IMG/VR virus record: IMGVR_UViG_2740892423_000023
Coordinates: 1-34,951 of that record
DNA: 34,951 nt
Source: a virus
Taxonomy: Duplodnaviria > Heunggongvirae > Uroviricota > Caudoviricetes
Strand: one strand, 5' to 3'
Positions 1-23,081 of this stretch are shown here, piece after piece. Every line of letters starts with the position of its first letter. Position 1 is the first letter of the stretch. Below the pieces are notes generated by a model that saw only the letters and a list, made by a program, of their open reading frames with translations, did no database searches and was not told where the DNA came from. Both the position numbers and the translations under genes were made by a program.

Positions 1-504
1 AGATGATGCCAGCAGCGCCACCTGATTTTTATCTTCGGCAACGGCTTCTGCATTCTGCTGTACGTTATCCGCCAGCGTCTCGCAGTCGCTCTTAATTTGT
101 TGCGCATCAGCGACATGTTGCCCGGCCTGTCGTTCGCTTTTCGCTGCCGCTTCCGCGCTCTGCTGCGCCTGCGCCACCATTTCCTCAAAGCGTTTCACAA
201 CATCCGGTTTTAAATCGCCTTCATCGAGGGCGGTCAGAAAGTCGTTCAGTGTGCCGGGCTTTGAGTCGTCGTAAACCGAAATGTCACCCACGCAGCACTT
301 AGGGCCGTTCTTTTGCTTGATGTGTACGGTGTATTTGCCTTTTTGTGCTTCAAAGGCATACTGTCCCGCCGCATCGGTTTCAATAACCGCAAATGATTCA
401 GTGACCACTTCACTGGTATTAACCAGTGCATCTAAATAAATTTTGCATTCCGCCATCGGAACGCCAGCGCCATTAATCAGCGCACCTGAAATTAATACAG
501 ACAT
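1..504 (-). CDS. Side-tail-fiber-like protein, N-terminal part only (continues beyond window start)
   Basis: Hand translation from ATG at 504: MSVLISGALINGAGVPMAECKIYLDALVNTSEVV...DDSKPGTLNDFL then Ala/Gln-rich coiled-coil; resembles prophage tail fibre N-terminal domain; open to position 1; not in ORF track because no stop in window. Confidence 0.55.
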   Translation of the reverse strand, partial: MSVLISGALINGAGVPMAECKIYLDALVNTSEVVTESFAVIETDAAGQYAFEAQKGKYTVHIKQKNGPKCCVGDISVYDDSKPGTLNDFLTALDEGDLKPDVVKRFEEMVAQAQQSAEAAAKSERQAGQHVADAQQIKSDCETLADNVQQNAEAVAEDKNQVALLASS

Positions 505-521
505 AAAGCCTCTGAACTGAA

Positions 522-545
522 AACGGCCGCCAGACAGCGACCGTT
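522..545 (-). terminator. Candidate weak intrinsic terminator after tail fiber assembly gene
   Basis: Minus-strand RNA AACGGUCGC-UGUCUG-GCGGCCGUU (9-bp stem with one G-U) followed by UUCAG; lies between tfa stop (552) and next start (504). Confidence 0.3.
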
Positions 546-551
546 ATTGTT

Positions 552-1076
552 TTACACGTCAGGTTTTTCCGGCCACTGAATTAAATCAAAGGAAGATTTA
601 TCGCTGACCTGACTTAAATCCAGCGCCTTTACCGCTTTGATATATGCCATCCACTGCATAAGACGGGCTTTATCATCGTCGCTGATGGTGCCCAGCTCCA
701 GCTCGGTTTTCCAGTCGGAGGTGATGTCCTTCGCTTCATTCAGCAGGCGCTGACGTTGTTTTTCTGCCAGTTGCGAATAATCAACAGGAACAGGCAGCAC
801 TTCGCCGTCTTTGTAATACCAGCTGGCTTCAATGCCAAAACCTTCCGGCAGTTCATCCACTTCCACAATGGTGAAGCCAGCCGGATAAAGACGGGACACG
901 TCTTCAGCCATCGAATAAATCACGCCGGTTTCAGGGTGAATACACAATTTGTATTTCTTCGTGAATTTATCCAGTGATTCATAAAAATCCTGTCCGTCCT
1001 CACTGCGGAAATACTGAATGTTTTCACCATAAGGCATCTCTTCCGGGTAATAACGCGTGACGTTTCTGAGTTCCAT
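552..1076 (-). CDS. Tail fiber assembly protein (Tfa/Mu U-like)
   Basis: ORF 552-1112; start refined to ATG 1076 (MELRNVTRYYPEEMPYG) preceded by AAGGAG; C-terminal DKARLMQWMAYIKAVKALDLS typical of Tfa chaperones. Confidence 0.8.
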   Translation of the reverse strand: MELRNVTRYYPEEMPYGENIQYFRSEDGQDFYESLDKFTKKYKLCIHPETGVIYSMAEDVSRLYPAGFTIVEVDELPEGFGIEASWYYKDGEVLPVPVDYSQLAEKQRQRLLNEAKDITSDWKTELELGTISDDDKARLMQWMAYIKAVKALDLSQVSDKSSFDLIQWPEKPDV

Positions 1077-1090
1077 TATTTTCTCCTTAA

Positions 1091-1894
1091 TTAGCCGGAT
1101 ACCGTGCGCCATCCGCCATTGATATAAATCTGAGTTTGTTTGTAATACACGCCGCCGATGTTATCCGCAGAGCTCCTGCCAGTTTCCTGAACGTTAATAC
1201 CTGACAAAATACAACCTGAAGGCGCGCGAAATACCCAGGAAATTTCGTTACCACCGGGATTGTGAAACACTTCGCTGGTGTATCTGAAATCACGCACAGC
1301 GCCGGAATCGGTGCTGCTGATGGTGATATCGCTGGTGCCATCAAACAGCACATTGTTAATCCTGCGGGCCGTCTGAAGCCGGGTTGCCGTTCCGGCGTTG
1401 CCACTGATGTTGTTGATAGTGATATCCGACGTCAGGGGCATATTGTTAATTTTGCGCGTTTTCGGCGCACCGCCGATGTTATCCAGAAACAATTGTTTAT
1501 TCGGGATGTCTGCGCCGTTACGGTCTTTTGCGAGTCTGGCGTTTGCGTTATCCATCGCAATTTTGACCGCTTTTGGTGTGGCTGCTTCTGTTTCTGATTC
1601 ACTGTTAACAGCGCTGTTAAGCTGTACCACGCCTTTTTGCGTCAGCGATGCATCCGGGACTTTCTGACCAATAAACGAGGTCAGCGCCTCAACCAGCTGG
1701 TTTTGTTTTTCCGGGTCAGGGGTGACGCCAGCCTCCTTAAGAACGTTAATCACCTCCTGCTGCAAATCACGCGTTGCTGCCTGATGATTATTCATAAATT
1801 CAGCAGTAACGATGGTTCCCTCAATTCCCTGAGTCGGGTCACCGTCATGAAATAACTTGTCCGGCGTATTCACCGGGGGCATTAAATTCCGCAT
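1091..1894 (-). CDS. Tail fiber protein (Mu S-like)
   Basis: 267-aa ORF directly upstream of tfa, after baseplate genes; Gly/Asn/Thr-rich C-terminal region; start overlaps upstream stop (TAATG). Confidence 0.65.
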   Translation of the reverse strand: MRNLMPPVNTPDKLFHDGDPTQGIEGTIVTAEFMNNHQAATRDLQQEVINVLKEAGVTPDPEKQNQLVEALTSFIGQKVPDASLTQKGVVQLNSAVNSESETEAATPKAVKIAMDNANARLAKDRNGADIPNKQLFLDNIGGAPKTRKINNMPLTSDITINNISGNAGTATRLQTARRINNVLFDGTSDITISSTDSGAVRDFRYTSEVFHNPGGNEISWVFRAPSGCILSGINVQETGRSSADNIGGVYYKQTQIYINGGWRTVSG

Positions 1895-2466
1895 TATTCC
1901 TCCACCTCATACGTGAAATAACAGTCTGTAAAAGCCGGTTTAAGGTCTTTAAAGGTATTTTCTAAAATGGATTCACCGAAGGCCGTCAGCGGTTCACCGG
2001 TTGCCGATGCCCCCGTTCTGAACCGGTAGAGCGGTGTTTTTGTCCCGATAACGTTGACCTGCCACGCCCAGCGGATTTCCGGTATCAGCAGACGATCGCC
2101 ACAGCGGTTTATCCCCACCCGGAACGGTCGTGGCTCCGTAATGGTGATGGTATAACCCAGACTGGCGGCAAGGCTCTTAAAGTAAGGGATTGACAGCCCG
2201 CCCGTGGCTGCCATTTTCACCAGAATGTTCTGCCTCCGCTCCTGTTGTGTTGCCCCTTCACGGGGGGCAATACCGTACACACGCTCCCAGTCGGACAGCG
2301 TCATCGATGCCTGCAACGGGGTGATTTGTGCCAGAACGCGCGCCGCTGACGCCTTCACGGCCTCCATGACGTCAGCCTCGGCGGTCAGTTCTGCGGAAAT
2401 ATATTTCCCGTTCGGGTCATAACTGACAGGTGGCAGCATGGCGCGAAATAAATCGACCATATTCAT
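1894..2466 (-). CDS. Tail protein, Mu gp48-like (DUF2313-like)
   Basis: ORF 1894-2502; start refined to ATG 2466 (MNMVDLFRAMLPP) with GAGGGG RBS, 2 nt after upstream stop; position after baseplate J. Confidence 0.65.
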   Translation of the reverse strand: MNMVDLFRAMLPPVSYDPNGKYISAELTAEADVMEAVKASAARVLAQITPLQASMTLSDWERVYGIAPREGATQQERRQNILVKMAATGGLSIPYFKSLAASLGYTITITEPRPFRVGINRCGDRLLIPEIRWAWQVNVIGTKTPLYRFRTGASATGEPLTAFGESILENTFKDLKPAFTDCYFTYEVEE

Positions 2467-2470
2467 AAAA

Positions 2471-3550
2471 TCACCCCTCACGTGGAAAAGGCTGAATATC
2501 AATATTTCCGGGGCGCAGCCATTCCCACGTTGACGCGTTAATAATGGCTTTTACGTTGCCTGCTGGCGTAATGATTCGCCGGTCACTGATACCGGAAATT
2601 AATGAAATCTGGGTTTCCAGTTGTGAAATAATTAATTCCTGCCCCGGCTCCAGCCGGTTCATAAAATCCGTGATAACGTCAGTTATCTGCGGTTTTATCT
2701 GTTCAACGGTCAGGCCGCTGGTTTTTACCCGGACAACGAAATCAACGGCTTTTTTCGTCGGGGCCAGCACCATCGTGTCCTTCGCTGTCACCGGGCGGAC
2801 TTCCTCAATATGAGCCAGCACGGCATTAATCAGTTCCTGCGAGGGAAGGTCATTGGCTGACGTAATGGCCACATCAACCGTCCCCAGTCCACGACGCAAT
2901 GGCTCCACATATGCCGAGGTAACACCATCCACTTCCAGCGCCCAGCGTTTGTAATCATATTTGTTACCGCCAGCGGGCGGCCTGCGCAGAATATCCAGAT
3001 AACGCGCCAGCAGGTCGGCGTCGCTTTCCCTGTCCGTTCCGCCGGTCAGGGATTTAATCGTCACCGTGCTGTTGATGCCTTCCGGCGGACTGACGAGCGT
3101 TGCCGTCTGCGTCGCGGATGCATTCGTCTGTGCACCCTTGGTGGTGCTTTTTACCGTCACCTCCGCGCTGCCTTCATCACCGATGGTGCAGTCTGCGGTG
3201 GTGGCCACGCTGACACCTTCACCACGAATTTCCGCACCGGCTGGCAGCGTCTTACCGGGTGTGCCGGTAATCACTGCCGGACCGGATGAGGCTGTTGCTT
3301 TTTTACGAAAAACATTGCGCGTGCGGCAGTGCAGCTCCAGATATTCAGGGTCTGCCGTGTCAGGAAACACCTGACGGAGGATCCACCCCTGATGCATATA
3401 AAGCCCGTCCGCCACGCCGGATACGGCATTTGCACGAATGCGGTAATCGCTGTCAGCGCCGGTATCTATGGTTTCTCCCGGCAGGGCGTTAGCGATATCA
3501 CGTAGCTGGCGTTCTGTGTTTTCAGCAACGCCCGGAACAGGAAACGGCAT
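2471..3550 (-). CDS. Baseplate J-like protein (Mu gp47-like)
   Basis: 359-aa ORF; position and size match Baseplate_J family; overlaps neighbours by start/stop coupling. Confidence 0.75.
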   Translation of the reverse strand: MPFPVPGVAENTERQLRDIANALPGETIDTGADSDYRIRANAVSGVADGLYMHQGWILRQVFPDTADPEYLELHCRTRNVFRKKATASSGPAVITGTPGKTLPAGAEIRGEGVSVATTADCTIGDEGSAEVTVKSTTKGAQTNASATQTATLVSPPEGINSTVTIKSLTGGTDRESDADLLARYLDILRRPPAGGNKYDYKRWALEVDGVTSAYVEPLRRGLGTVDVAITSANDLPSQELINAVLAHIEEVRPVTAKDTMVLAPTKKAVDFVVRVKTSGLTVEQIKPQITDVITDFMNRLEPGQELIISQLETQISLISGISDRRIITPAGNVKAIINASTWEWLRPGNIDIQPFPREG

Positions 3551-3900
3551 TACATAATCCTCACAGGGTGTTCAAACGTCTGCGGTGTGCCCGCGTTATC
3601 CGTGACGGTGATTAACAGCAACAGCCAGCCGCGCTGGCCCACTTTCGTGTCAACGGTAATGGCTGTCGCCCGCCCGTCATCAAGCAGGGGCTGAAGTGCC
3701 TGGCTGGCATACTGCGCCGCCAGCCTGTGGACACGGGAAACGTCTTTTTCCCGCTTCAGCTCGTGCAGGCGTGACCCCAGCGACGCATCCGCCCAGTAAC
3801 TGCCAAGCGGTGTCGCCAGTCGCAGATAAACCGCGTTATGGAGTGTATAAATCCGGCGGCGTTCGTAGTCGCCGGTTGCAGGTGAAATCGTCTGGTCCAT
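3550..3900 (-). CDS. Baseplate protein, phage GP46 family (Mu gp46-like)
   Basis: 116-aa ORF MDQTISPATGDYERRRIYTLHNAVYLR between spike and J genes. Confidence 0.7.
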   Translation of the reverse strand: MDQTISPATGDYERRRIYTLHNAVYLRLATPLGSYWADASLGSRLHELKREKDVSRVHRLAAQYASQALQPLLDDGRATAITVDTKVGQRGWLLLLITVTDNAGTPQTFEHPVRIM

Positions 3901-3953
3901 GCCGCCAGTCTGGCAGCATGGACAGGTCAGAATCAGGTGAGGGTGTTCAGCAC

Positions 3954-4607
3954 TTAATTATGCGGCAGGCCAGATATGCCGTGAGGGGTATCGTGTTTAT
4001 GCGTTCCGATTTTAACGCCATTAATGGTGACGTCAACGGAGGTAATCACACCTCCCACATGGTTGATATTGCCTTCAAAGGTGGCGGCGTATTCCTTGCC
4101 TCCACGGATGGCCATGCCACCGTTGCCGGTGATTTTACCTTCCACCGTCAGCTTATCGCTGGCCGTCAGTAACGGTGTCGTGAATGCGGCGTTCTCCTCT
4201 GCCTCAACCTCATAGCGTTTGCATTTCACCCGGTAAACGTCACATTCGGTTTCAACAATCCGCCCGCGCTTCAGTACGATTTTCGCGCCTTCGTCGGTAT
4301 ACAGGGCCACCTCGCCGGGTTTCAGTTCCGTCAGGCGATATGCGCCGTGCTCTGTGGCCACGACGACGGTATGGGAGGTATTACCATTCAGCGGAACGGC
4401 AATACCCATCGAGCCGGGCGGCGGGGATGTGGTGAGGCCGTAATGCTGAAAATACTCCGCACCGTCCAGCTGTTCGCCTGCCAGCCCGTTCAGCTGAAGT
4501 AGCTGTACTTTGGTCGAACTGTCCACCGTACCGGTCACCACCCTGAATGCCTGGCGAACGGCGGCCAGTGCCTGCTGTATGCGCTGATTAACCTTGTCCC
4601 ACATCAT
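3954..4607 (-). CDS. Baseplate spike/assembly protein V-like (Mu gp45-like)
   Basis: 217-aa ORF; gpV-like pattern with C-terminal THKHDTPHGISGLP; ATGA overlap with upstream gene. Confidence 0.75.
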   Translation of the reverse strand: MMWDKVNQRIQQALAAVRQAFRVVTGTVDSSTKVQLLQLNGLAGEQLDGAEYFQHYGLTTSPPPGSMGIAVPLNGNTSHTVVVATEHGAYRLTELKPGEVALYTDEGAKIVLKRGRIVETECDVYRVKCKRYEVEAEENAAFTTPLLTASDKLTVEGKITGNGGMAIRGGKEYAATFEGNINHVGGVITSVDVTINGVKIGTHKHDTPHGISGLPHN

Positions 4608-5815
4608 TTCTCCCAGACCTTAACAATGGCGACCTCTTTTTTCTTTTTGCCCCTGCGGTGATGGCGTTTCTTCTCGCGCGGGAAGGCATCTGGTATCCAC
4701 ACGCCATCCTCCTTAAAGCGGAGCCGGGTTGTCTGCCCGCTCCGGCCTCCGCTGAACTCACGCCCCATCAGGAAAAAGATGGCATCAATGCCGTGGGGTT
4801 CGCTGACAATTCGCACACGCTGGCCGGGCTGCCACAGGACACCGTCCGTCGTGCGATGACCTGCAACCAGTGCGACGATATTCAGCCCCGACAGGCGGGC
4901 ATCACTCATCATTTTTTTGGCGCGCCAGTTCACCTGCTCCATGTTACTGGTGTCGCCCTGGGTGATTATCTGCGGGCGGTAATAATCCACGGCGGGGTCG
5001 GTGGCCACGGCTTTCATGTTATGAATGCCTGTCTGACCATTGTCCGTATTACCGCTGTCCTGCCCGGATAATGTGCGCACGCTGCCGTCCTTGTTCCAGA
5101 TATCCAGCGGCACCACGGCCAGTTGTTTCTTGCTGTCTGCGCGGCGGGCGTGGCTCTGGGCCAGCACCGTCAGCTCGGAGAAACAGCCGTTAATGGACCG
5201 GGTATCGTCCAGCTCCATCACGTTGTTCCCGGTGCCGTCCAGCTTCATAATCAGCGTGTCCACCGGCGTGGTGGTGTAGTCAGGGCCACCCACAACCAGC
5301 GTCCCGTCAGGCTCAAACCACGGCCATAAGCCGCGACCGGCGGCAGCTTTAGCCAGTGCATCCCACGCACGCATCCCCGGCTCTATAACGACCTTGTCAT
5401 TACGTGACACACCGGACGCCTGAATACGGATGCGCTGTATCCCCAGCGGTCTGACTATCCTGTCGATGACCTCGTCCAGTGTCAGCTGGTTGGCGCTGAA
5501 CACCGGTGCGGCACAGTCCACCAGGATGGCGGCATCATCACGCCCGGACAGGGTCAGCGTGCAGCTCTGACGGGATACACTGCGGCGCACGCTGTCCACG
5601 CGACCACTGAGGACCGTCTCGTCTCCCACCTGCAAACGGACCGGCGCACCCCGGACGATATCCGCCGGGAACACCTTTTCAGGCAGTCCCAGCTGAAGCT
5701 GCCACCCGTCGGCGGCTTTCAGGAAATCGCTGTCAATACGATAACTGCTCCAGTCAGAATGCGACCTTCCGGCAATGACCAGGCTGATTTTGTCGTCGTT
5801 ATTTTGCATAGGCAT
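4604..5815 (-). CDS. Baseplate hub / late control D-like tail protein (Mu gp44-like)
   Basis: 403-aa ORF between DNA-circulation protein and spike gene; size and position typical. Confidence 0.75.
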   Translation of the reverse strand: MPMQNNDDKISLVIAGRSHSDWSSYRIDSDFLKAADGWQLQLGLPEKVFPADIVRGAPVRLQVGDETVLSGRVDSVRRSVSRQSCTLTLSGRDDAAILVDCAAPVFSANQLTLDEVIDRIVRPLGIQRIRIQASGVSRNDKVVIEPGMRAWDALAKAAAGRGLWPWFEPDGTLVVGGPDYTTTPVDTLIMKLDGTGNNVMELDDTRSINGCFSELTVLAQSHARRADSKKQLAVVPLDIWNKDGSVRTLSGQDSGNTDNGQTGIHNMKAVATDPAVDYYRPQIITQGDTSNMEQVNWRAKKMMSDARLSGLNIVALVAGHRTTDGVLWQPGQRVRIVSEPHGIDAIFFLMGREFSGGRSGQTTRLRFKEDGVWIPDAFPREKKRHHRRGKKKKEVAIVKVWEK

Positions 5816-7148
5816 TAATCACCATCCCGGCGGTTATGTTGTTCGGGTCACGCAGCTGCGGGTTCAGACGTTGCAGCTCTGCCGCACGGCTGTAATCACC
5901 GTACCACTGCCACGCCAGCAACAGCAGACAGCTGTCCGCCTGCACCTGTTTCTGCGTCAGCGGTGGGCGGCGTGACAGAACCAGCAGGCCGACATCCTGC
6001 ACGGATGCCGCCACGTTCTTCATGCTCTGAATGATTTCCGGGTACATCAGCCCCAGTGGTGATGCGGTTTCGGTTATCCATTCGCGTTCGCCTTCATAGC
6101 GTTCACGGAACAGCGTGATGGCTGCCTGTAAGCGGGTGCGCACATCCCCGACCAGTCGCCCGATATCCGCCGGTATAAGCTGCTCTGACTGGGCCTCATC
6201 TGACAGTATCGCCGTCGCCACGCTGGCCAGCTCTGAGGCCGCCAGAACCGCATAAGCCGCTTTCACGTCCTGCACGTCTTCCACGGACGCATCCGGCGGA
6301 AGTGCCACAGACGGCGTTTTATCACCGCTGACCAGCGCGACCGGCAGCGCGACCAGCTCATCCATATCTGCCATCACCTCATTCCAGCAGGTCATCACGG
6401 TCGCAGAACTGGCGACGCTGTCTTCTCCGGTCAGCCCGGTCGTGGTGGCGGAATCAGAACGCTCCAGCACCGGCACCGCGTGCCCGACATCTGACGTGTG
6501 GATTTCCAGCACCTCTGCCAGCCCACCGATGAACTTTCCGGGTTCGCTGGCCAGCGACATCATATTGTCGATGGATGAGAGAAAATCGCTTTTGAACGTC
6601 AGCAGGGTATTTACCAGTGTGGCGCGCACTGTCTGGATTTTTTTAATCACGCTGTTAATGGTCTTTAAAGGGGCTGTAACAGCGTCAAATAATTCGCTTA
6701 ACTGTGCCAGTAACTTATCCAGTTCTTCAAATAACTTCTGTGCAAACAACTCCGGTAACGGGGTGCTGAACAACGCGCTGCCGGTGCGGTTCTCCAGAAA
6801 GCTCATGTCGATGGTGCAGCTGTCCGGGCTTTCTGCGTCATGGCGAATGCTGTAGCCGGTCACAATCACCGACGGAACGGAGCCGTAAACCGGGTGAATC
6901 AGCTCACCATCGCCGCCTTTATCCAGGGCGGCGATCAGCTTTTCAAGTTTATATTCGTAATACTCCCCCCACAGGAACGCCGTCATGCGGAACGGTCGCG
7001 CCTTGCGTCCGAGGTCGTGCAAATCTGCCCCGTCAACAAACGGGTATTCATAGACCGCATGGTCGCGGCTGATTTGTTCATCCGTGTTCAGTACATCAAA
7101 CTGCACGCCACGAAAGGAGGCGTTTTGCAGGTTTTCAGCCCAGCCCAT
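5799..7148 (-). CDS. DNA circulation protein (Mu N-like), C-terminal LysM-like region
   Basis: 449-aa ORF MGWAENLQNASFRGVQFDV; start shares one nt with tape measure stop (TGATG). Confidence 0.75.
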   Translation of the reverse strand: MGWAENLQNASFRGVQFDVLNTDEQISRDHAVYEYPFVDGADLHDLGRKARPFRMTAFLWGEYYEYKLEKLIAALDKGGDGELIHPVYGSVPSVIVTGYSIRHDAESPDSCTIDMSFLENRTGSALFSTPLPELFAQKLFEELDKLLAQLSELFDAVTAPLKTINSVIKKIQTVRATLVNTLLTFKSDFLSSIDNMMSLASEPGKFIGGLAEVLEIHTSDVGHAVPVLERSDSATTTGLTGEDSVASSATVMTCWNEVMADMDELVALPVALVSGDKTPSVALPPDASVEDVQDVKAAYAVLAASELASVATAILSDEAQSEQLIPADIGRLVGDVRTRLQAAITLFRERYEGEREWITETASPLGLMYPEIIQSMKNVAASVQDVGLLVLSRRPPLTQKQVQADSCLLLLAWQWYGDYSRAAELQRLNPQLRDPNNITAGMVINAYAK

Positions 7149-9382
7149 CAGTAAGTGCCTCCCGTGCCTCTGTTACCGTCCTGAAGGTTGTATTTATTCA
7201 CCGCCTCTGCGATAACCTGCCCGTCGAGCACCACCTGAGTGGTGACGTTAACCGGGGGCGCTGGCGGCTGTCCGCCATTCTGAACGCCGGGCTGACCACC
7301 ACGTTTACCGGATGCATTAATGGTATCAGCCGCGGTCATCCCGGCTTGCTGTCGGACTTGTTCTGGTGTCGGCAGAGAATCACCGGCGATAACCCCGGTT
7401 TTTTTCAGTTCGTCAAGATACTGCTGGATCCATTTCTCGTTTTCTGTTGAGTAACCTTCGCCAAACTGCCACCACGGCTGATATTTTTCACGGGCAGCAT
7501 CAATCAGCCACTGAGGATATTTAGCCCGTATATTTTTCCAGCGCTCCTCGCTTCCTTCGACGGCGGCGTCTTCTTCCGGGCTGGTTGCGGTAGCCAGTGC
7601 CGTAACGGTGCCACCGAAAGAAAGCAGGCCACCGGCAATGCCGGGAAGTTTTAACCCTTTGCCTTTCTTAATTGTGGTTTCAAGCACATCACCAACAACG
7701 TCGCCAATCTTGCCACCGGATTTTCCCCCGGTCAGGATTTTGACCCCGGCCCATGTCAGGGCCGCTGCGGTCATCGCTTCAATGGCGGTCGTGGCTGCCA
7801 CCACTGCCGTGGTCAGTCCCGGAAACTTTTCACCCGCCCAGCTTATGGCATCAGCCACAGCACCGGACGCATCAGCCAGCTTTTTCACGCTGTCCATTTG
7901 TGAAAATTCAAGCGTGTTTTTAGCCTGTTCGGTTTTAAAATCATTCGTGCCTGACGTGAATTCGAAATCCACATCACCAGTTCGTTGACCTTCAGGAAGT
8001 GACCGTTGTTTTTCAATTTCAGCTTCAACCTTTTTGCGAAACTCAGGATTCTGGCGGTAGGCCAGAGCGCCCAGTAGCGCCTGACGGTCCTGAAGGATCT
8101 CACCAACCCCAAACCCTTCAAGAATAGTGGCCATAGAGTCCAGAATTTCAGCCTGTTCTTTTTTATCCTTTGATGCAGCCAGTTTTTTTTGAAGTTCCTG
8201 ATAGGCCGGATTGTTTTTTACAACAGCATCAAGAACCCGGTTAAACGCCTCAATCGGATCAATGCCTCGCTCACGGGCCATGGTCATTGTTCCTGGTAAA
8301 TCAATATACTTACCGTTGGCCATTTTTATATTTGCAGCAGCATCTGCGGCCTGCTTACTGTTAATTTTATCCAGAAAATTTAGCGTGTTATTGGCTGCCT
8401 CTTTACCATTTCCGGCTGTGATACCCGCAGCTTCATTTGCTGTCAGTATCTTCTGAAAACCATCCAGACCCCACATCCCTGTTTTTTGCGCAATCCCGAG
8501 TTGCCCGGGAAGGGCTTCTGCCATGTCCTTCAGTTCAACCCGACCTTCTTTACCGGCTGCAATCGCCATATTCAGCGCAACGGGAATATCTTTATCACTG
8601 ACGTTAAAAGTATCTCTGAGGGATACTGCAATTGTCGCCAGCTCTTTTGGTAATGCACCTGATGCTGTGGCATATTTCATAATCTGCGGAAGCCATTTAT
8701 CCGCAGTGTCATAATCAACCCCTGCTGCCAACAATTCATTCATTGTGTCAGCAGCATCCTCTTTTGAGCCTCCGCCGTACATCACGGCATTTTTAATACT
8801 GCTTTTCAGTTTTTCTTTCCCGGCCTGTCGACCTGCCAGACCACCATCACTGAAGGCAGTATTGGCCATTTCACTCAATCGACGATCAAAGCTCATCTGC
8901 TTTTTGACCGGCTGTGTCATAATGGCAGTACCTGCTGCGATGCCACCACCAATCGTCAGGACGTTGCCGCCAATATTGGCCGCCTTTGCCAGCGTGCCGA
9001 CACCACGCATTTCCCGCTTCAGTTCCCGGATTTGCTCTTTCGTGGCACGCCATGCCCGCGCCTGTTCGCGGGCAGACATGACGCCACTACGGGCAAGGCG
9101 GTTATAACTGGCTTCAGTAAGGGCGATTTCCCGGCGGATTTCATGCTCCGAACGGATGCCAAGCGTTTCCCGGGCACGGGCTGCACGCTGTAATTCGGTG
9201 ACAACCCTTTTTGTGCTGTTGATGCTCTCATCATCGGTGCGTTTCTGCTCCTGACCTGCCTTTTTGGTTGCTTTTTCCACTCCTTCAGTGGCTTTTACAA
9301 CCTTCTTTTTTCCCTTTTCCAGAACCTGCGAGGCTTCGTCCTTCGCAGTCAGGGTCATGCCAACTTTGAAATTACCGGCCAT
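7148..9382 (-). CDS. Tail tape measure protein
   Basis: 744-aa ORF, Ala/Gly/Lys-rich with coiled-coil character, immediately downstream of tail chaperone. Confidence 0.85.
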   Translation of the reverse strand: MAGNFKVGMTLTAKDEASQVLEKGKKKVVKATEGVEKATKKAGQEQKRTDDESINSTKRVVTELQRAARARETLGIRSEHEIRREIALTEASYNRLARSGVMSAREQARAWRATKEQIRELKREMRGVGTLAKAANIGGNVLTIGGGIAAGTAIMTQPVKKQMSFDRRLSEMANTAFSDGGLAGRQAGKEKLKSSIKNAVMYGGGSKEDAADTMNELLAAGVDYDTADKWLPQIMKYATASGALPKELATIAVSLRDTFNVSDKDIPVALNMAIAAGKEGRVELKDMAEALPGQLGIAQKTGMWGLDGFQKILTANEAAGITAGNGKEAANNTLNFLDKINSKQAADAAANIKMANGKYIDLPGTMTMARERGIDPIEAFNRVLDAVVKNNPAYQELQKKLAASKDKKEQAEILDSMATILEGFGVGEILQDRQALLGALAYRQNPEFRKKVEAEIEKQRSLPEGQRTGDVDFEFTSGTNDFKTEQAKNTLEFSQMDSVKKLADASGAVADAISWAGEKFPGLTTAVVAATTAIEAMTAAALTWAGVKILTGGKSGGKIGDVVGDVLETTIKKGKGLKLPGIAGGLLSFGGTVTALATATSPEEDAAVEGSEERWKNIRAKYPQWLIDAAREKYQPWWQFGEGYSTENEKWIQQYLDELKKTGVIAGDSLPTPEQVRQQAGMTAADTINASGKRGGQPGVQNGGQPPAPPVNVTTQVVLDGQVIAEAVNKYNLQDGNRGTGGTY

Positions 9383-9530
9383 TTTTCTGCTTACCTTTTC
9401 TGCGTTTCTTTCTGAGGGATTTAAATGACTGGCGGGTGGTCTGCGAGGTGCCCTTCCTTCCTGAGCCGCCGCCGTTCAGCCTGTCAACGGCGGCAAGCCA
9501 GCCGTCCAGCTCGGGACGGCTCATGGTCAT
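9372..9530 (-). CDS. Small ORF in -1 frame between chaperone and tape measure (candidate frameshift extension or independent small gene)
   Basis: Hand translation MTMSRPELDGWLAAVDRLNGGGSGRKG...; the -1 frame relative to gp41 is open from 9629 to 9372; weak AAGAG before ATG 9530. Confidence 0.35.
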   Translation of the reverse strand: MTMSRPELDGWLAAVDRLNGGGSGRKGTSQTTRQSFKSLRKKRRKGKQKNGR

Positions 9531-9544
9531 GATTTGCTCTTCGG

Positions 9545-19297: not shown

Positions 19298-20949
19298 CCT
19301 CCTGAACCAAAACGCCCGTCACGGTCACGCCCGGTGCTGCGTGGGGTGTGAATCTGAAATTTTGCGCTGCGCGATACCGCCAGCGTCCACAGCATGTGCA
19401 GACAGTCCGGGCCATCATCGTGGTCGGCTTTGGGGTAGTGGCGCAGCTGGTCAATCAGCGTCTGATGTGTGTGACTGATACGAATCAGGCCGTTGGCCAT
19501 ATGCGGCTGAAGGGATTCGATACGCAGTGCCTTATCCTCCAGCGGGATGACCGGCAGCGCCGGAACCGGCACGCCCAGCGCCGCCGAACGCTCAACCAGC
19601 ACGGTACGCAGAAACTCCTGAAACTGGACGGACTCAAACGACCAGCACAGACAGTGATATTCCCGCTGATACTTAATCACGTCTTCGATAAGTTTGTTTG
19701 GCAGACGTCGGCGGATATCGGCTTCAACCACATCCAGAATGCCGGTAAAGCGGTTAAAGCCCCCCACGAGAATGGCCGACGGGTCGCGGTTTTTGTTTTT
19801 CTTCCCGAGGCTGGGGTCAACAGCGCCGTAGAATACCCATTCATCAAGACGGTTAACCCAGAATTTAATGCAGCCCGCAAACAGCGCGTCTTCACCGCTG
19901 ACCGGGTCGTTCTGGTATTCAGAATCAAAGGTGTCATGACCGTCACGGACACGGATTTTCATCAGCGCCAGCAGGGGACGCGCCGCCCATGACACCACTG
20001 ACCCGGCGAGCATGTCGGCTTCGTTCTGCCGGTAAAGTGCCTCCGCCGCTTCCGGCTGTTTATTGCGGATGAGTTCTTCCCACTCGTCCCACAGCTTCAT
20101 GTTGGCAGGCCACTGAATAACAGCCTTAAAGCGGGCCGTTTTCCACATCGGGTTATTGAGTGTGCGCGACAGCACGGAGTCGTAATGCAGGATGGTTCCG
20201 ATATAAATAATATCGGTTTTACCGCCAGCCTCGCCCAGCGGCATCACAGTTTTGGTGAGCCAGTCATGCAGCTTGTCGCGCTGCTCCGGGTTACGCACCA
20301 TCTCGTCGTTCTCGATGTCGTCGAGGATGACCAGGTCAGGACGGTACGGACCGTGGCGCAGACCACGCAGTTTTTTACCACTACCGGCAACGGTCACCTT
20401 GATATTGTTGGCCGTGACGATGGTCCCCATACGCCAGACGCGCCCCTGTCCGCACACCTCCGGGAAATCGTTTTTTAAACGGGGGTTAAATTCCAGTTCA
20501 GCCTTGATGGCTTCCAGCATCGGATAAGCCTGGTCGATACTGTCCATAATGATGACCGGGTAATGCTTAATGGCCCGGATAATGGTCCACAGGGTAAACA
20601 GCTGAGTCACCAGCGTGGATTTTGCTTCACCACGGGGCGCGGCGATGGCGTCGTTCTCCGGGGCCGGGCTTGCCACAACCTGTGGCAGACGGCTGAACAG
20701 GTATTTATGCAGCTCGCTTTTTGCCGGGTTGCGGACGTAATGCGGGAAATAGTTTTCGACAAAATAATCGTAGCCCGTCACCGGGTCGCAGACTGCCGCC
20801 CGGCGGGCCTGTGTGGCCTGCGGGTTAACATCGAACCCCAGACATTCAGCCTCGATGGTCTGGCGGAGGTTGGCGATGTATTCCTGTAAGCTTCTCTGAA
20901 ACTCTTTAATGGAAAGTTTACGTTTTGCCACGTCACACCTGGTATACAA
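19291..20949 (-). CDS. Terminase large subunit
   Basis: 552-aa ORF; deviant Walker A (AAPRGEAKST), Walker B-like LVILDDIENDE; start is TTG 20949 or GTG 20931 (AGGTG RBS). Confidence 0.8.
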   Translation of the reverse strand: MYTRCDVAKRKLSIKEFQRSLQEYIANLRQTIEAECLGFDVNPQATQARRAAVCDPVTGYDYFVENYFPHYVRNPAKSELHKYLFSRLPQVVASPAPENDAIAAPRGEAKSTLVTQLFTLWTIIRAIKHYPVIIMDSIDQAYPMLEAIKAELEFNPRLKNDFPEVCGQGRVWRMGTIVTANNIKVTVAGSGKKLRGLRHGPYRPDLVILDDIENDEMVRNPEQRDKLHDWLTKTVMPLGEAGGKTDIIYIGTILHYDSVLSRTLNNPMWKTARFKAVIQWPANMKLWDEWEELIRNKQPEAAEALYRQNEADMLAGSVVSWAARPLLALMKIRVRDGHDTFDSEYQNDPVSGEDALFAGCIKFWVNRLDEWVFYGAVDPSLGKKNKNRDPSAILVGGFNRFTGILDVVEADIRRRLPNKLIEDVIKYQREYHCLCWSFESVQFQEFLRTVLVERSAALGVPVPALPVIPLEDKALRIESLQPHMANGLIRISHTHQTLIDQLRHYPKADHDDGPDCLHMLWTLAVSRSAKFQIHTPRSTGRDRDGRFGSGGW

Positions 20950-20958
20950 ATATCAGAC

Positions 20959-20976
20959 GGCCCGGAAAACCGGGCC
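20959..20976 (-). other. Perfect stem-loop between terminase small and large subunit genes
   Basis: GGCCCGG-AAAA-CCGGGCC, 7-bp GC stem, 6 nt after terS stop. Confidence 0.5.
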
Positions 20977-20983
20977 GCTGTGG

Positions 20984-21484
20984 TTAACTGAAATTATCCT
21001 CAAGCTCTTTAGCGAAGCCTTCGAGCACCTCAAGAAACGGGGCATACTGTGCCGGGTGACGCTCCTTGATGAACGCGCCGAGCCGCTGCACCACTTCCAG
21101 TGCCGTGGCGAGCCGGTCGGTTTCCGGCAGGATTTTTTTACTGCTGGCCACCGCCTTACTGAGACTGTCAGACAGACTCGCCAGCAGTTCGACGGACTCC
21201 TGCGGCGGGATGTCCGGGTTCTGGTTCAGCCGTTCAAGCGTCGTCTGACACTTCACCACCAGACTGATAAGCACGGTGCGGGCGACACTTTCCAGCCCGT
21301 CACCGGCGAGCGCGTGAGCGGCACGCAGCTTGTCCCAGTCGTCGCCGTTCTTCATCGCCTGCGTTTTCCAGCGCCGCGCGGTGTCGTGCGGCACGGCGTA
21401 CTTCATGGCGACGATATCCAGCGGAAGCTGGTCAAAGATGTACCCGTTACGGACTTTGTCCCTGATATCCTGTGACCACGCCAT
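20984..21484 (-). CDS. Terminase small subunit-like protein (Mu gp27-like, DUF1804-like)
   Basis: 166-aa ORF MAWSQDIRDKVRNGYIFDQLPLD with AAGGA RBS, immediately upstream of large terminase. Confidence 0.6.
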   Translation of the reverse strand: MAWSQDIRDKVRNGYIFDQLPLDIVAMKYAVPHDTARRWKTQAMKNGDDWDKLRAAHALAGDGLESVARTVLISLVVKCQTTLERLNQNPDIPPQESVELLASLSDSLSKAVASSKKILPETDRLATALEVVQRLGAFIKERHPAQYAPFLEVLEGFAKELEDNFS

Positions 21485-21709: not shown

Positions 21710-21892
21710 TCAGCTCTGTGAACACTGCCGGATGCCGTCAATAATCCGGCAGACCTGCGCCGCCGCGTCAAACAGCTGGCCCGCCCTGTTAATGTCTGTG
21801 CATCCCACCGGAAGCAACATCATCAGAAACAGGGCCAGAACACAGCGCGCGGCTTTACGTGGCGTTCTGTGGGTCCAGTGACTTCTGTTCAT
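21710..21892 (-). CDS. Small predicted lipoprotein (possible o-spanin-like lysis protein)
   Basis: 60 aa: basic N-region, hydrophobic CVLALFLMMLLPVG followed by Cys (lipobox-like), directly after endolysin. Confidence 0.45.
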   Translation of the reverse strand: MNRSHWTHRTPRKAARCVLALFLMMLLPVGCTDINRAGQLFDAAAQVCRIIDGIRQCSQS

Positions 21893-21905
21893 AACCCGTC
21901 CCGCA

Positions 21906-22283
21906 TCAGCGTTTTAACTGGAAATGAGGCCCGTCTTTCAGCGTTTTCCAGTCTCCGCCCCATTCGATGGCGACACCCAGCTCTGCGGCAGCCTGTTTAA
22001 AGGCACGGGCGATTTTTTCGTATAACGGCCAGTCCCATGAAATGGTGCTACCAACGTAAGCCACGACATCAACGGCATCGCCAGTAAGGTGACGGCTGTT
22101 CATGGTCTGGCTCTTGCCTTCAGCGACAAGTTGTTTCTGACGTTCTTTCGTGCGTAAACCTTCGGTAATACCAAAATCGACGTCCGACAACGCCAGCGCA
22201 CGGCGTACAACCGCCACCAGTTGTGGCTTTACGCCAGCCAGATTTTTCTCGCTACGTTGACTGAAACGGAATTTTTCCGACAT
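21906..22283 (-). CDS. Endolysin, peptidase M15-like (L-alanyl-D-glutamate peptidase type)
   Basis: ORF 21906-22334; start refined to ATG 22283 (MSEKFRFSQRS) with GGAGGT RBS; SRHLTGDAVDV and WGGDW...DGPHF motifs. Confidence 0.75.
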   Translation of the reverse strand: MSEKFRFSQRSEKNLAGVKPQLVAVVRRALALSDVDFGITEGLRTKERQKQLVAEGKSQTMNSRHLTGDAVDVVAYVGSTISWDWPLYEKIARAFKQAAAELGVAIEWGGDWKTLKDGPHFQLKR

Positions 22284-22285
22284 AT

Positions 22286-22564
22286 TTACCTCCGCAGTAA
22301 CGAAAGGATTTTTGACAAATTCCCGTGCGCCCACACGATAAGCGCACAGAAAACCAGATTCAGCGCCACAACCAGCCAGCTGGAGTGCGTGTATGTACCG
22401 GACAGCCAGCGGAACGGGATGATGATGTAGCCGAGCATCAGCCAGTACGCCAGCCAGGTAATCATCGGCTTATGCGCCGCACCGTGGCGACGATACACAA
22501 ACAACCCCAGCACAATGGCGAGACACAGCCAGACGTTCACGATACCGGCAAGGCTACTTTCCAT
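22286..22564 (-). CDS. Holin-like membrane protein (3 predicted TM helices)
   Basis: ORF 22286-22570; ATG 22564 with GGAGGGGG RBS; three hydrophobic segments and basic C-terminus; precedes endolysin. Confidence 0.5.
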   Translation of the reverse strand: MESSLAGIVNVWLCLAIVLGLFVYRRHGAAHKPMITWLAYWLMLGYIIIPFRWLSGTYTHSSWLVVALNLVFCALIVWAHGNLSKILSLLRR

Positions 22565-22946
22565 TTCCACCCCCTCCGCCGCGCAGTCTGGAAAACAGGC
22601 CGAACAGCGATGAAATTTCCTGTTGATAAAGAAAGGTCAGTATCTTGATGGATAACGCCGAGACACCGACCGCACACAATGCATCGAGCGGCTTGTCGTT
22701 GTAGTGGGTCAGCCACTGCATCAGTGACGCAGCCACGCCAGCCCCCAGAACGCCAACCACAAACGCGACGAGCAGGTGGATGGCCATTCGCCAGACCGGG
22801 ATTTCTTTCTGTTGCGTGACAACAAAAAGCGCCCCGGCAAACGCGCCCACCACGACCCCGAAATCGGTATTGGTGAGAAGACCAAACACACTGGCACCAC
22901 CGATGGTGACTGCCACAGCTCCGCCGCCTGATAAGGGTTCAGACAT
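22554..22946 (-). CDS. Membrane protein (about 4 TM helices), possible holin/antiholin
   Basis: ORF 22554-23006; ATG 22946 (MSEPLSGGG) with AGGAG RBS; Gly/Ala/Val-rich hydrophobic segments. Confidence 0.45.
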   Translation of the reverse strand: MSEPLSGGGAVAVTIGGASVFGLLTNTDFGVVVGAFAGALFVVTQQKEIPVWRMAIHLLVAFVVGVLGAGVAASLMQWLTHYNDKPLDALCAVGVSALSIKILTFLYQQEISSLFGLFSRLRGGGGGNGK

Positions 22947-23081
22947 GAGTTTCTCCTGTAAATCTGAGCCACTGACGGCCCGTAAATAACACCCTGTCAA
23001 AGGCACAAAAGCCTTTTGCAGGGCGCTATCCCTTAAGGTGCCTTGTGGTCTGAGTGGACAGGGTAAACGGTCTGGTGTGGT

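What the first reader, a model, noticed from the sequence alone, without database searches (positions are those of the whole stretch)
1..1894. Two tail-fiber genes in tandem: Mu S-like fiber plus Tfa, followed by a lambda-type side-tail-fiber-like gene
After the S-like fiber (267 aa) and its Tfa chaperone, a further gene starts at 504 with a tail-fibre N-terminal domain and runs off the window. Mu normally switches host range by inverting a G segment. Here a second co-directional fiber gene suggests dual fibers or a mosaic host-range module. No inverted repeats or invertase are visible in the window.
Basis: partly seen in the sequence, partly recalled or inferred. Interest (0 to 1): 0.35.

Follow-up and report, generated by a model that had tools for sequence, protein, structure and literature searches.

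The report
Mu-like prophage with two tail fibres
The end of this Mu-like E. coli prophage's tail operon encodes a short Mu-type baseplate fibre with its chaperone, followed by the start of a lambda-type side fibre; this replaces Mu's invertible host-range switch, and the same layout is already present, though unstudied, in sequenced phages such as phiP27.

Summary
On the minus strand the window encodes three genes. The first is a 267-aa fibre (1091-1894) whose first 141 residues match the constant part of Mu S. The second is a Tfa chaperone (552-1076; the true start is 1076, not 1112). The third starts at 504 and has a full PF08400 lambda-Stf N-terminal domain.

The window is a Mu-like transposable prophage with a contractile tail. 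It has no invertase and no gix-type repeats. The window edge coincides with a draft-contig break inside multi-copy stf DNA.

Seven closed E. coli relatives, each inserted at a different site, carry fibre-2 (567-759 aa). It is followed by a DUF4376 chaperone-type gene in six of them. Both genes lie inside the Mu-type right end, and there is no gin. Fibre-2 is intact in five of the seven, and its 5' part is under purifying selection (dN/dS 0.03-0.09).

The same four-gene layout occurs in phiP27, Rac-SA53, vB_Apl-pPE4 and an E. coli W prophage. The pair of PF08400 fibre plus DUF4376 gene also sits directly after P2-type gpD and after lambda stf-tfa. It therefore behaves as a portable accessory-fibre cassette.

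The most likely reading is that both fibres are on the virion at once, in place of G inversion. I rate it a new member of a known kind, of modest interest.

The parts
1894..2466 (-). gp48/YmfQ-type baseplate wedge protein (190 aa). This is the protein that carries the fibre docking loop in Mu. It is context for fibre-1.
   Evidence: PF10076 Phage_Mu_Gp48, E 2e-31. PDB 9ki1 Mu gp48, E 8e-9. Gene callers use the ATG at 2466. In Mu the S N-terminus docks on gp48 loop 133-155 (PMC11915804).
1472..1894 (-). Fibre-1, residues 1-141: the Mu S constant-part homologue, which is the baseplate anchor plus the Phage_fiber_2 repeat. The homology ends at the position of Mu's gix crossover.
   Evidence: 41% identity to Mu S residues 12-171, E 5e-32. 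PF03406 at residues 83-123. PDB 5yvq/8ju3. 97-99% identical in Mu-like relatives.
1091..1471 (-). Fibre-1, residues 142-267 plus stop: a short variable receptor-binding part. The tip (about 1101-1300) is a swapped cassette.
   Evidence: Only 74-78% nucleotide identity to most relatives in 1101-1300, but 96-99% to L006. Residues 195-267 are 78% identical to Rac-SA53 tail1. Residues 207-267 match the tip of the phiTE short tail fibre, 9cuy, E 4.5e-14.
552..1076 (-). Tfa, the tail fibre assembly chaperone for fibre-1 (174 aa).
   Evidence: PF02413, E 7e-22. Mu U, E 1e-22. PDB 5yvq_B, E 2e-16. PHROG 136, E 1e-56. Start at 1076 supported.
522..545 (-). A 10-bp G+C-rich hairpin (AACGGTCGCT-GTCT-GGCGGCCGTT) followed by TTCAGTT, lying between the Tfa stop and the fibre-2 start. 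It is a weak terminator or attenuator-like element, or a relic of the former operon end.
   Evidence: The 71-nt stretch folds at -22.9 kcal/mol, z -3.0. The terminator scan lists an inner 5-pair stem here, 526-538. It is kept with wobble-compatible changes in relatives. An unrelated hairpin (GCCGCC-CGCA-GGCGGC plus T5) sits at the same place in a sister lineage. phiP27 and pPE4 types have no hairpin.
226..504 (-). Fibre-2, residues 1-93: a lambda gpStf-type N-terminal 'collar' domain (the beta-sandwich virion anchor).
   Evidence: PF08400, E 1.8e-50. PDB 9e7m Ur-lambda gpStf residues 1-93, E 4.6e-17. XM1 collar spike gp40, E 7e-4 for the fragment and 4e-8 for the full-length relative.
1..225 (-). 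Fibre-2, residues 94-168: the linker and the start of an Ala/Gln/Glu-rich shaft. The gene is cut by the window edge.
   Evidence: Translation. Continues identically in L002 and in STEC308. Bases 1-299 are 90-97% identical to many multi-copy stf genes.

Best explanation
Window 1-2466 is the distal end of the late tail operon of a Mu-like transposable prophage with a contractile tail. This lineage lacks Mu's G segment and Gin.

Its host-recognition region has two parts.
(a) A resident Mu-type fibre. The S-like N-terminus docks on the gp48 wedge protein. The C-terminal tip is short and exchangeable. A Tfa chaperone folds it.
(b) An appended accessory cassette. Only the first 168 codons of its fibre are in the window. 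That fibre has a lambda-Stf 'collar' N-domain, a long coiled-coil shaft and a highly variable tip. In close relatives a DUF4376 chaperone-type gene follows it, and the Mu-type right end lies about 80 bp beyond.

Both fibres are co-directional and are probably made together from the late transcript. Fibre-2 would need read-through of a weak hairpin. Particles would then carry six baseplate fibres plus a second set of side fibres anchored elsewhere. The second anchor would be a ring of collar domains, as at the lambda tube/tip junction or the XM1 neck.

Host range is varied by recombination, not by DNA inversion. The exchanged parts are the fibre-1 tip and, above all, the fibre-2 shaft and tip, which recombine with stf genes of co-resident prophages.

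Shown: the gene identities, the absence of an invertase, the position inside the prophage, conservation and purifying selection, and the portability of the cassette.
Inferred: co-expression, presence of fibre-2 in the virion, and its anchoring site.
For: Identity of the parts.

The element is a Mu-like transposable phage with a contractile tail. It has MuA, a MuB-like ATPase, a Mu-type repressor, Mor, gp36/gp37, a sheath protein and baseplate J.

No Gin or gix in the window. None in the complete 38-kb relative in STEC313.

Fibre-2 lies inside the right end at seven different insertion sites, with a DUF4376 gene in six.

Fibre-2 lengths are 567, 608, 684 and 759 aa, while fibre-1 is always 267 aa (same calls).

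Purifying selection: dN/dS 0.03-0.09 for fibre-2 codons 1-168, against 0.07-0.10 for gp48.

The same four-gene layout is present in phiP27 L54-L57, Rac-SA53 tail1-4, vB_Apl-pPE4 gp67-70 and an E. coli W prophage.

Of 80 IMG/VR loci with this N-domain subfamily:
- 48 lie after fibre-1 plus Tfa with two baseplate types;
- 21 lie directly after P2-type gpD;
- 5 lie in a further gpU-gpD lineage;
- 2 lie after lambda stf-tfa.
Of 46 complete copies with enough downstream sequence, 43 are followed at once by a DUF4376 gene.

DUF4376 proteins are experimentally required fibre chaperones in Alteromonas phage V22 and Campylobacter CJIE1 (PMC7289586, PMC7882524).

Mu S occupies the six gp48 docking loops (PMC11915804). 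Stf N-domains form a 12-mer collar on Ur-lambda (PMC12617516). A homologous N-domain anchors XM1 gp40 to the myophage neck (PMC10457771).

There are precedents for two fibre sets on a simple baseplate: Sf14 and phiTE.
Against: There are no virion proteomics, microscopy or expression data for any member.

Fibre-2 is cut by the window edge, so its integrity in this particular genome is unknown.

Two of seven relatives have a damaged fibre-2: a frameshift in RM9088 and an internal deletion in TUM9812. Several of those prophages are defective elsewhere too.

A terminator-like hairpin lies between tfa and fibre-2, and no sigma-70-like promoter was found. Fibre-2 may therefore be poorly expressed.

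No candidate docking partner co-varies with the N-domain. The N-domain is 70-77% identical across tail lineages whose baseplate and sheath proteins are at most about 30% identical or undetectable. The sheath of a contractile tail covers the tube site that lambda uses.
Confidence: 0.62

Rival explanations
1. The fibre-2 and DUF4376 pair is hitch-hiking recombinational cargo. It was picked up from other prophages at the end of the operon, is not incorporated into this phage's particles, and persists only because it is recent or neutral.
For: A terminator-like hairpin lies directly upstream and no promoter was found. Two of seven relatives have a disrupted fibre-2. The 5' DNA is shared at 90-97% with many stf genes, so gene conversion could keep it looking intact. 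No partner protein co-varies with it.
Against: dN/dS is 0.03-0.09. The pair is present in every Mu-like relative examined, down to 83% nucleotide identity. The chaperone-type gene is retained in 43 of 46 complete copies. The N-domain forms its own subfamily: about 60-80% identity within these contexts against about 43% to lambda Stf. The tips vary in length and sequence, as expected for a receptor-binding protein in use.
Confidence: 0.17
2. The two fibres are used alternatively rather than together. The hairpin between tfa and fibre-2 would act as a regulated terminator or attenuator, so that only some bursts or conditions produce fibre-2-bearing particles. This would be a transcriptional substitute for G inversion.
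For: Two unrelated hairpins occupy the same junction in two Mu-like sublineages. The window version keeps its pairing through wobble-compatible changes.
Against: The U-tract of the window version is weak (TTCAGTT). The second version is degraded in L115. phiP27-type and pPE4-type modules have a 23-nt spacer with no hairpin. No regulator is evident. Fibre-1 would be made in either state, so this could only add fibre-2, not switch between them.
Confidence: 0.12
3. A G-segment-like invertible switch exists but lies just outside the window, with the invertase and an inverted alternative fibre end downstream.
For: Classical Mu, P1 and e14 work this way. The fibre-1 homology to Mu S stops exactly at the gix position.
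Against: In seven closed relatives the prophage ends about 80 bp after the DUF4376 gene, or right after fibre-2 in one case. None has an invertase or inverted fibre genes. The window has no gix-like sequence. Fibre-2 has its own start codon and its own anchor domain.
Confidence: 0.03
4. The gene at 504 belongs to a neighbouring lambdoid prophage or remnant, not to the Mu-like element.
For: PF08400 is typical of lambdoid side tail fibres. 278 of 282 phage records that match it do so below 60% identity, and those listed are mostly lambdoid or Stx-converting phages.
Against: The Mu-type right end and the interrupted host genes lie beyond fibre-2 and the DUF4376 gene at seven unrelated chromosomal sites. 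The spacer to tfa is only 47 nt.
Confidence: 0.02

Closest known systems
Stx2e phage phiP27, genes L54-L57 (NC_003356). The same layout is in Rac-SA53 tail1-4, vB_Apl-pPE4 gp67-70 and the E. coli W prophage at uspF.
   Same: The four-gene order is identical at the distal end of a contractile-tail operon: fibre, PF02413 Tfa, PF08400 fibre, DUF4376 protein, then the prophage end. The fibre-2 N-domain is 71-77% identical. The DUF4376 protein is 84-89% identical to that of the window's closest relative.
   Different: Those phages are integrase-type, not transposable. Their baseplate proteins are at most 26% identical or undetectable. Their fibre-1 lacks the close Mu S N-terminus. They have a 23-nt spacer and no hairpin before fibre-2. 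None has been studied functionally for the second fibre, as far as the paper library shows.
Phage Mu S/U with the invertible G segment and Gin
   Same: The same baseplate gene order, gp47-gp48-S-U. Fibre-1 residues 1-141 are homologous to the constant part of S. Tfa is homologous to U.
   Different: The window has no S'/U', no gix, no gin and no mom. Fibre-1 is 267 aa against 504 aa for S. A second complete fibre gene with a different anchor domain stands where the inverted genes would be.
Ur-lambda side tail fibre gpStf with Tfa
   Same: The N-terminal collar domain is homologous (PDB 9e7m, E 4.6e-17; PF08400 full length). It is followed by a linker and a long shaft.
   Different: Identity is only about 43%. 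The host tail here is contractile, so lambda's gpV/gpM collar site is under a sheath. The partner in relatives is a DUF4376 protein with no detectable similarity to Tfa. The tip is different.
Vibrio myophage XM1 collar spike gp40
   Same: An Ig-like N-domain plus a trimeric coiled coil, detectably homologous (E 7e-4 for the fragment, 4e-8 over residues 2-208 of the full-length relative). It is anchored on a contractile-tailed virion away from the baseplate.
   Different: The similarity is distant. gp40 has a tailspike-like C-terminus. It is not encoded next to the baseplate genes, and its neck partners have no shown counterpart here.
Shigella phage Sf14 and Pectobacterium phage phiTE: two fibre types on one simple or Mu-like baseplate
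   Same: Two different fibres are present at once on a myophage. The tip of fibre-1 (residues 207-267) is homologous to the phiTE short tail fibre tip.
   Different: In those phages both fibres attach to baseplate wedges through baseplate-type N-termini. Neither uses a PF08400 collar domain. Sf14 lacks chaperone genes.

Membership tests
Mu gp49 (S)-type baseplate tail fibre | N-terminal part homologous to the constant region of Mu S, which anchors to gp48 | tested here: met
   41% identity, residues 4-141 against Mu S 12-171, E 5e-32. PDB 5yvq/8ju3/9ki1.
Mu gp49 (S)-type baseplate tail fibre | Encoded directly downstream of a gp48-type wedge protein | tested here: met
   PF10076, E 2e-31. 9ki1 gp48, E 8e-9. 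The genes abut at 1894. Conservation of the docking loop itself was not examined.
Mu gp49 (S)-type baseplate tail fibre | Followed by a U-type (PF02413) assembly chaperone | tested here: met
Gin/Cin/Pin invertible host-range segment | Serine invertase gene next to the fibre genes | tested here: not met
   No Gin-like hit in the window (best E about 1). None in seven closed relatives.
Gin/Cin/Pin invertible host-range segment | gix-type inverted repeats flanking oppositely oriented alternative fibre ends | tested here: not met
   The gix search allowing 9 mismatches finds nothing in the fibre region. Inverted repeats are at most 26 nt at 77%. All fibre genes are co-directional.
Lambda Stf-type side tail fibre | PF08400 N-terminal collar domain | tested here: met
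   E 1.8e-50, 134 of 134 profile positions. 9e7m, E 4.6e-17.
Lambda Stf-type side tail fibre | Linker and long trimeric coiled-coil shaft after the N-domain | tested here: inconclusive
   An Ala/Gln/Glu-rich sequence runs from about residue 100. It aligns with the XM1 gp40 coiled coil to residue 208. No coiled-coil or structure prediction was run.
Lambda Stf-type side tail fibre | Cognate PF02413 Tfa encoded downstream | tested here: not met
   Not visible in the window. In relatives the downstream gene is a DUF4376 gene, which has no similarity to Tfa.
Lambda Stf-type side tail fibre | Non-contractile lambda-type tail (J, gpV/gpM collar site) | tested here: not met
   The window encodes a sheath protein, baseplate J, gp46 and gp48. 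It has no J homologue.
phiP27-type tandem dual-fibre module | Co-directional order of fibre, Tfa, PF08400 fibre, DUF4376 protein at the end of the tail operon, next to the prophage end | tested here: inconclusive
   The first three genes are present in the window. The fourth gene and the prophage end lie beyond the window. They are present in relatives that are 95-98% identical.
phiP27-type tandem dual-fibre module | Fibre-2 N-domain of the subfamily found in these contexts | tested here: met
   71-77% identity to phiP27, Rac-SA53 and pPE4, against about 43% to lambda.
Mu-like transposable phage | MuA transposase, MuB-type ATPase, Mu-type repressor, Mor | tested here: met
Mu-like transposable phage | Random insertion sites and Mu-type ends | tested here: inconclusive
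   Neither end is in the window. Relatives sit at seven different loci with a common right end ...CGCGAAGTTACA. The 5-bp target duplication in STEC313 is ambiguous by 1 nt.

The most novel reading that the evidence does not exclude
The PF08400 fibre plus DUF4376 gene pair is a self-sufficient, portable 'plug-in' side-fibre cassette. Its collar N-domain can ring-assemble on structurally conserved tail parts of unrelated long-tailed phages without a dedicated adaptor. The contexts seen are Mu-like, phiP27-like, Rac-SA53-like and P2-like contractile tails, and lambda. On contractile tails it would sit away from the baseplate, for example at the neck as in XM1. That would give temperate myophages a second receptor-binding system that exchanges freely by recombination.
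Probability: 0.35. Interest if true: 0.55.

Novelty: new member of a known kind. Interest (0 to 1): 0.32.

Why it matters
It shows a second way for Mu-family phages to diversify host range. The first is the textbook Gin/G-segment inversion. Here a resident baseplate fibre is combined with an appended lambda-type side fibre whose tip is swapped by recombination with stf genes of co-resident prophages.

The cassette turns up at the end of the tail operon in at least five tail lineages. If its collar domain really docks without a lineage-specific partner, it would be a convenient handle for retargeting temperate phages or tailocins.

There is also a practical point. The shared stf DNA is a predictable break point in draft assemblies, so automated prophage calls will often truncate this module.

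Tried and rejected
(1) An exact-product look-up with the 186-aa Tfa ORF found nothing, because the true start is at 1076. The 267-aa fibre did find two draft contigs, but both break inside fibre-2. The rest of the gene in the source genome could not be recovered.

(2) A scan of species-representative genomes with gp48 gave 34 loci in other genera. None has a PF08400 second fibre. One (Morganella, L015) has a Gin homologue, the classical arrangement. This scan did not find the source and showed that the dual layout is not a general Mu-family trait.

(3) I looked for a docking partner that co-varies with the fibre-2 N-domain by comparing all window proteins with phiP27, Rac-SA53, pPE4 and Mu. 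None was found.

(4) I checked whether the DUF4376 protein is a diverged Tfa. There is no detectable pairwise similarity.

(5) A gix relic at the constant/variable junction of fibre-1 was rejected. The protein motif is conserved (DRNGADIPNK.LF), but by my manual codon-by-codon comparison of the 18 nt at the gix position only about half the bases match (window bases; the gix sequence is from memory and no Mu DNA was fetched), and the mismatch-tolerant gix scan found no hit there.

(6) Structure prediction was not run. The sequence matches to solved structures were already significant, and the tools cannot model the multimeric docking that matters.

(7) Literature searches for PF08400, Rac-SA53, phiP27 tail fibres and two-fibre Mu-like phages found no functional study of this module.
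Full report
WHAT IS IN THE WINDOW. All genes in 1-2600 read on the minus strand.

After baseplate J (2471-3550) comes a gp48/YmfQ-type wedge protein (1894-2466; PF10076, E 2e-31; PDB 9ki1 gp48, E 8e-9).

Next is a 267-aa fibre at 1091-1894. It carries the Phage_fiber_2 repeat (PF03406, E 4e-21). Residues 4-141 align with Mu S residues 12-171 at 41% identity (E 5e-32; PDB 5yvq/8ju3). The homology stops at ...DRNGADIPNKQLFLDNIG. This is exactly where Mu's G-segment boundary (gix) lies in S. The remaining 126 residues are unrelated to S apart from a faint match at the extreme C-terminus. The last 61 residues match the tip of the phiTE short tail fibre (9cuy, E 4.5e-14).

A Tfa chaperone follows (PF02413, E 7e-22; Mu U, E 1e-22; 5yvq_B, E 2e-16). 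Its real start is the ATG at 1076 (174 aa, with an AAGGAG upstream), not the ATG at 1112 in the ORF list. Gene callers and RefSeq use 1076 in identical or related loci, and the 186-aa product is not on record.

After a 47-nt spacer a third gene starts at 504. It stays open to base 1 (168 codons). It matches PF08400 end to end (E 1.8e-50) and the solved N-terminal domain of Ur-lambda gpStf (9e7m, residues 1-93, E 4.6e-17).

THE ELEMENT. The window is a Mu-like transposable prophage with a contractile tail. It encodes a MuA-type transposase, a MuB-like AAA ATPase, a Mu-type repressor, Mor, gp36 and gp37 neck proteins, a sheath protein and baseplate J. Mu Gin finds nothing in the window (best E about 1). 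A mismatch-tolerant gix search finds nothing in the fibre region, and inverted repeats there are short and imperfect.

WHY THE GENE RUNS OFF THE WINDOW. The window starts 1 nt short of the end of draft contig JRGD01000067.1. A second draft contig with identical proteins ends 86 nt further on. Bases 1-299 are 90-97% identical to stf genes found in 136 of 5426 complete E. coli genomes, at up to 7 places per genome. The edge is most likely an assembly break at a repeat, not a biological truncation.

WHAT LIES BEYOND, FROM CLOSED RELATIVES. Twenty-three complete E. coli genomes share the whole 1-2500 junction, at 83-95.6% identity among those listed. I examined seven of them. Each sits at a different chromosomal site:
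- beside yjiK (STEC308);
- between yjfJ and yjfK (STEC313);
- in chbG (RM9088);
- inside another prophage (08-00022);
- in an aldehyde dehydrogenase pseudogene next to puuR (TUM9812);
- in a sugar ABC transporter substrate-binding gene next to ytfR (SA53-3);
- near fadR (M8).

In every one, fibre-2 continues as a 567-759-aa gene. In six it is followed by a 177-198-aa DUF4376 gene. About 80 bp after that gene, where I read the junction (STEC308, RM9088 and STEC313), comes a common end...GAAAAAAACGCGAAGTTACA, and then unrelated host DNA.

The STEC313 copy is a complete 38-kb prophage running from the repressor to this end, with no gin and no mom. Fibre-2 is intact in five of the seven. RM9088 has a frameshift and TUM9812 an internal deletion. 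SA53-3 has a 608-aa fibre-2 with no DUF4376 gene annotated.

Codons 1-168 of fibre-2 have dN/dS of 0.03-0.09 against these relatives. That is as low as gp48, at 0.07-0.10.

MOSAIC STRUCTURE. Sliding identity shows two exchange zones. One is the fibre-1 tip (window 1101-1300): 74-78% identity to most relatives but 96-99% to another. The other is everything in fibre-2 beyond about codon 107, which is replaced outright in SA53-3 and M8. Fibre-1 length is constant at 267 aa, whereas fibre-2 length varies. Diversification here is by cassette exchange.

THE LAYOUT IS NOT UNIQUE. phiP27 (L54-L57), Rac-SA53 (tail1-4), vB_Apl-pPE4 (gp67-70) and an E. coli W prophage all end their contractile-tail operons in the same way: fibre, Tfa, PF08400 fibre, DUF4376 protein, then the attachment site or integrase.

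The fibre-2 N-domain is 71-77% identical among these phages. By contrast, 278 of 282 phage records match it below 60% identity; those listed are mostly lambdoid or Stx-converting phages, and lambda Stf is about 43% identical. Baseplate and sheath proteins of these lineages are at most about 30% identical to the window's, or undetectable.

I scanned IMG/VR with the 168-aa fragment and obtained 80 loci. Their contexts were as follows:
- 31 follow fibre-1 plus Tfa with a pPE4/Rac-SA53-type baseplate.
- 17 follow fibre-1 plus Tfa with a Mu/phiP27-type baseplate.
- 21 lie directly after P2-type gpU-gpD, with no fibre or Tfa in between.
- 5 are in another gpU-gpD lineage, after fibre-1 plus Tfa.
- 2 lie after lambda J-lom-stf-tfa.
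- 4 are unclear.

Of 46 complete copies with enough downstream sequence, 43 are followed at once by a DUF4376 gene. Fibre lengths range from 405 to 1047 aa.

The unit that moves is therefore the two-gene pair of PF08400 fibre plus DUF4376 gene. [quoted passage not shown]

A scan of species-representative genomes with gp48 found no second fibre in 34 Mu-type loci from other genera. The classical Gin arrangement appeared in Morganella. The dual layout is a mosaic of Escherichia-associated prophages.

HOW IT MOST LIKELY WORKS.

Established knowledge:
- In Mu the trimeric N-terminus of S docks on a loop of gp48, one fibre per wedge and six per particle (PMC11915804). Fibre-1 has that N-terminus and should fill those sites.
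- In Ur-lambda the gpStf N-domains (residues 1-91) form a 12-membered collar round the tube at the gpV/gpM junction. A flexible linker joins them to four trimeric coiled-coil fibres (PMC12617516).
- In the myophage XM1 a detectably homologous N-domain (E 7e-4; 4e-8 with the full-length relative) anchors six gp40 trimers to the neck (PMC10457771).
- DUF4376 proteins are required for fibre function in Alteromonas phage V22 and Campylobacter CJIE1.

Inference: the prophage makes both fibres from the late operon and carries them together. Fibre-2 would be held by a collar of N-domains at a site other than the gp48 loops. On a contractile tail the neck is the best precedent. The DUF4376 protein would fold the variable tip.

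Two fibre sets on one simple baseplate have precedents in Sf14 and phiTE.

Not shown: expression, incorporation into the particle, and the docking site.

A COMPLICATION. A 10-bp G+C-rich hairpin lies between tfa and fibre-2 at 522-545, followed by TTCAGTT. The 71-nt stretch folds at -22.9 kcal/mol with z -3.0. Relatives keep it through wobble-compatible changes.

A sister Mu-like sublineage with a different Tfa C-terminus has an unrelated hairpin at the same place (GCCGCC-CGCA-GGCGGC plus T5), although it is degraded in one locus. phiP27-type and pPE4-type modules have a 23-nt spacer and no hairpin. No sigma-70-like promoter was found in 1-2600.

I read the hairpin as either the former end of the operon, marking where the cassette was appended, or an attenuator that sets the ratio of fibre-2 to fibre-1. 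It also keeps the rival readings (poorly expressed cargo, or conditional expression) alive.

VERDICT. This is a new member of a known but functionally unstudied module type, first sequenced in phiP27. Here it sits in a Mu-like transposable phage in place of the G-segment switch.

Interest is modest. A specialist would not be surprised by two receptor-binding proteins. The portability of the collar-domain cassette across at least five tail lineages, and its unknown docking site on contractile tails, are testable and mildly new.

Noticed in passing
window 1152-1166 and 1470-1484: An exact 15-nt direct repeat (minus strand GGATAACATCGGCGG, encoding DNIGG) occurs twice inside fibre-1. One copy lies at the constant/variable junction, which corresponds to the Mu gix position. 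The other lies 22 codons from the C-terminus. Together they bracket the variable part. By my own estimate about 0.004 such exact 15-mers are expected by chance in 3 kb. It may be a recombination scar or a substrate for tip exchange.
   Followed up: partly
L111 and L129 (IMG/VR), about 1-7500: Lambda-like loci with J, lom, stf and a lambda-type tfa (92-94% identical) are followed by a second PF08400 fibre gene, 63-68% identical to the window's N-domain. These appear to be lambdoid siphophages with two Stf-type fibres in tandem.
   Followed up: partly
L089, L063 and 19 similar IMG/VR loci, about 1000-10800: A P2-type sheath, tube, E, tape measure, gpU and gpD are followed directly by a PF08400 fibre and a DUF4376 gene. 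The accessory cassette sits after the last tail gene, away from the phage's own H/G-type fibre genes.
   Followed up: partly
window 21710-23006: The lysis cassette (two holin-like ORFs, an endolysin and a small ORF) is 49-87% identical in protein to phiP27 L28-L32. This is a second mosaic link to phiP27 besides the fibre-2 cassette.
   Followed up: no
window 34373-34951: The Mu-type repressor ORF (192 aa, PF02316) ends exactly on the last base of the window. In STEC313 the prophage left end, with repeated ATTCTGGGCG motifs that are probably transposase-binding sites, lies about 340 nt further on. The window therefore lacks both prophage ends.
   Followed up: partly
window 20949-20984, compared with L052 15625-16414: STEC313 has a 246-aa DNA methyltransferase gene between the DUF1804 gene and terL. 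The window has only a 35-nt gap there, so this gene is variably present in the lineage.
   Followed up: no
L050 (E. coli SA53-3) 3485-5320: The 608-aa fibre-2 ends 9 nt from a truncated host substrate-binding-protein gene next to ytfR. No DUF4376 gene or Mu-type right end is annotated. IMG/VR locus L119, which has a fibre-2 ORF of the same 608-aa length, does have a DUF4376 gene. The right end of the SA53-3 prophage therefore seems to be deleted.
   Followed up: no
L006 (E. coli JNE21-009) 5889-9340: The same fibre-1 and Tfa (91-97% identical) are followed not by fibre-2 but by a 351-aa hypothetical protein. Beyond it lies a second, oppositely oriented phiP27-like tail gene set, and the gp48 gene is a pseudogene. 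This is a rearranged or compound prophage.
   Followed up: no
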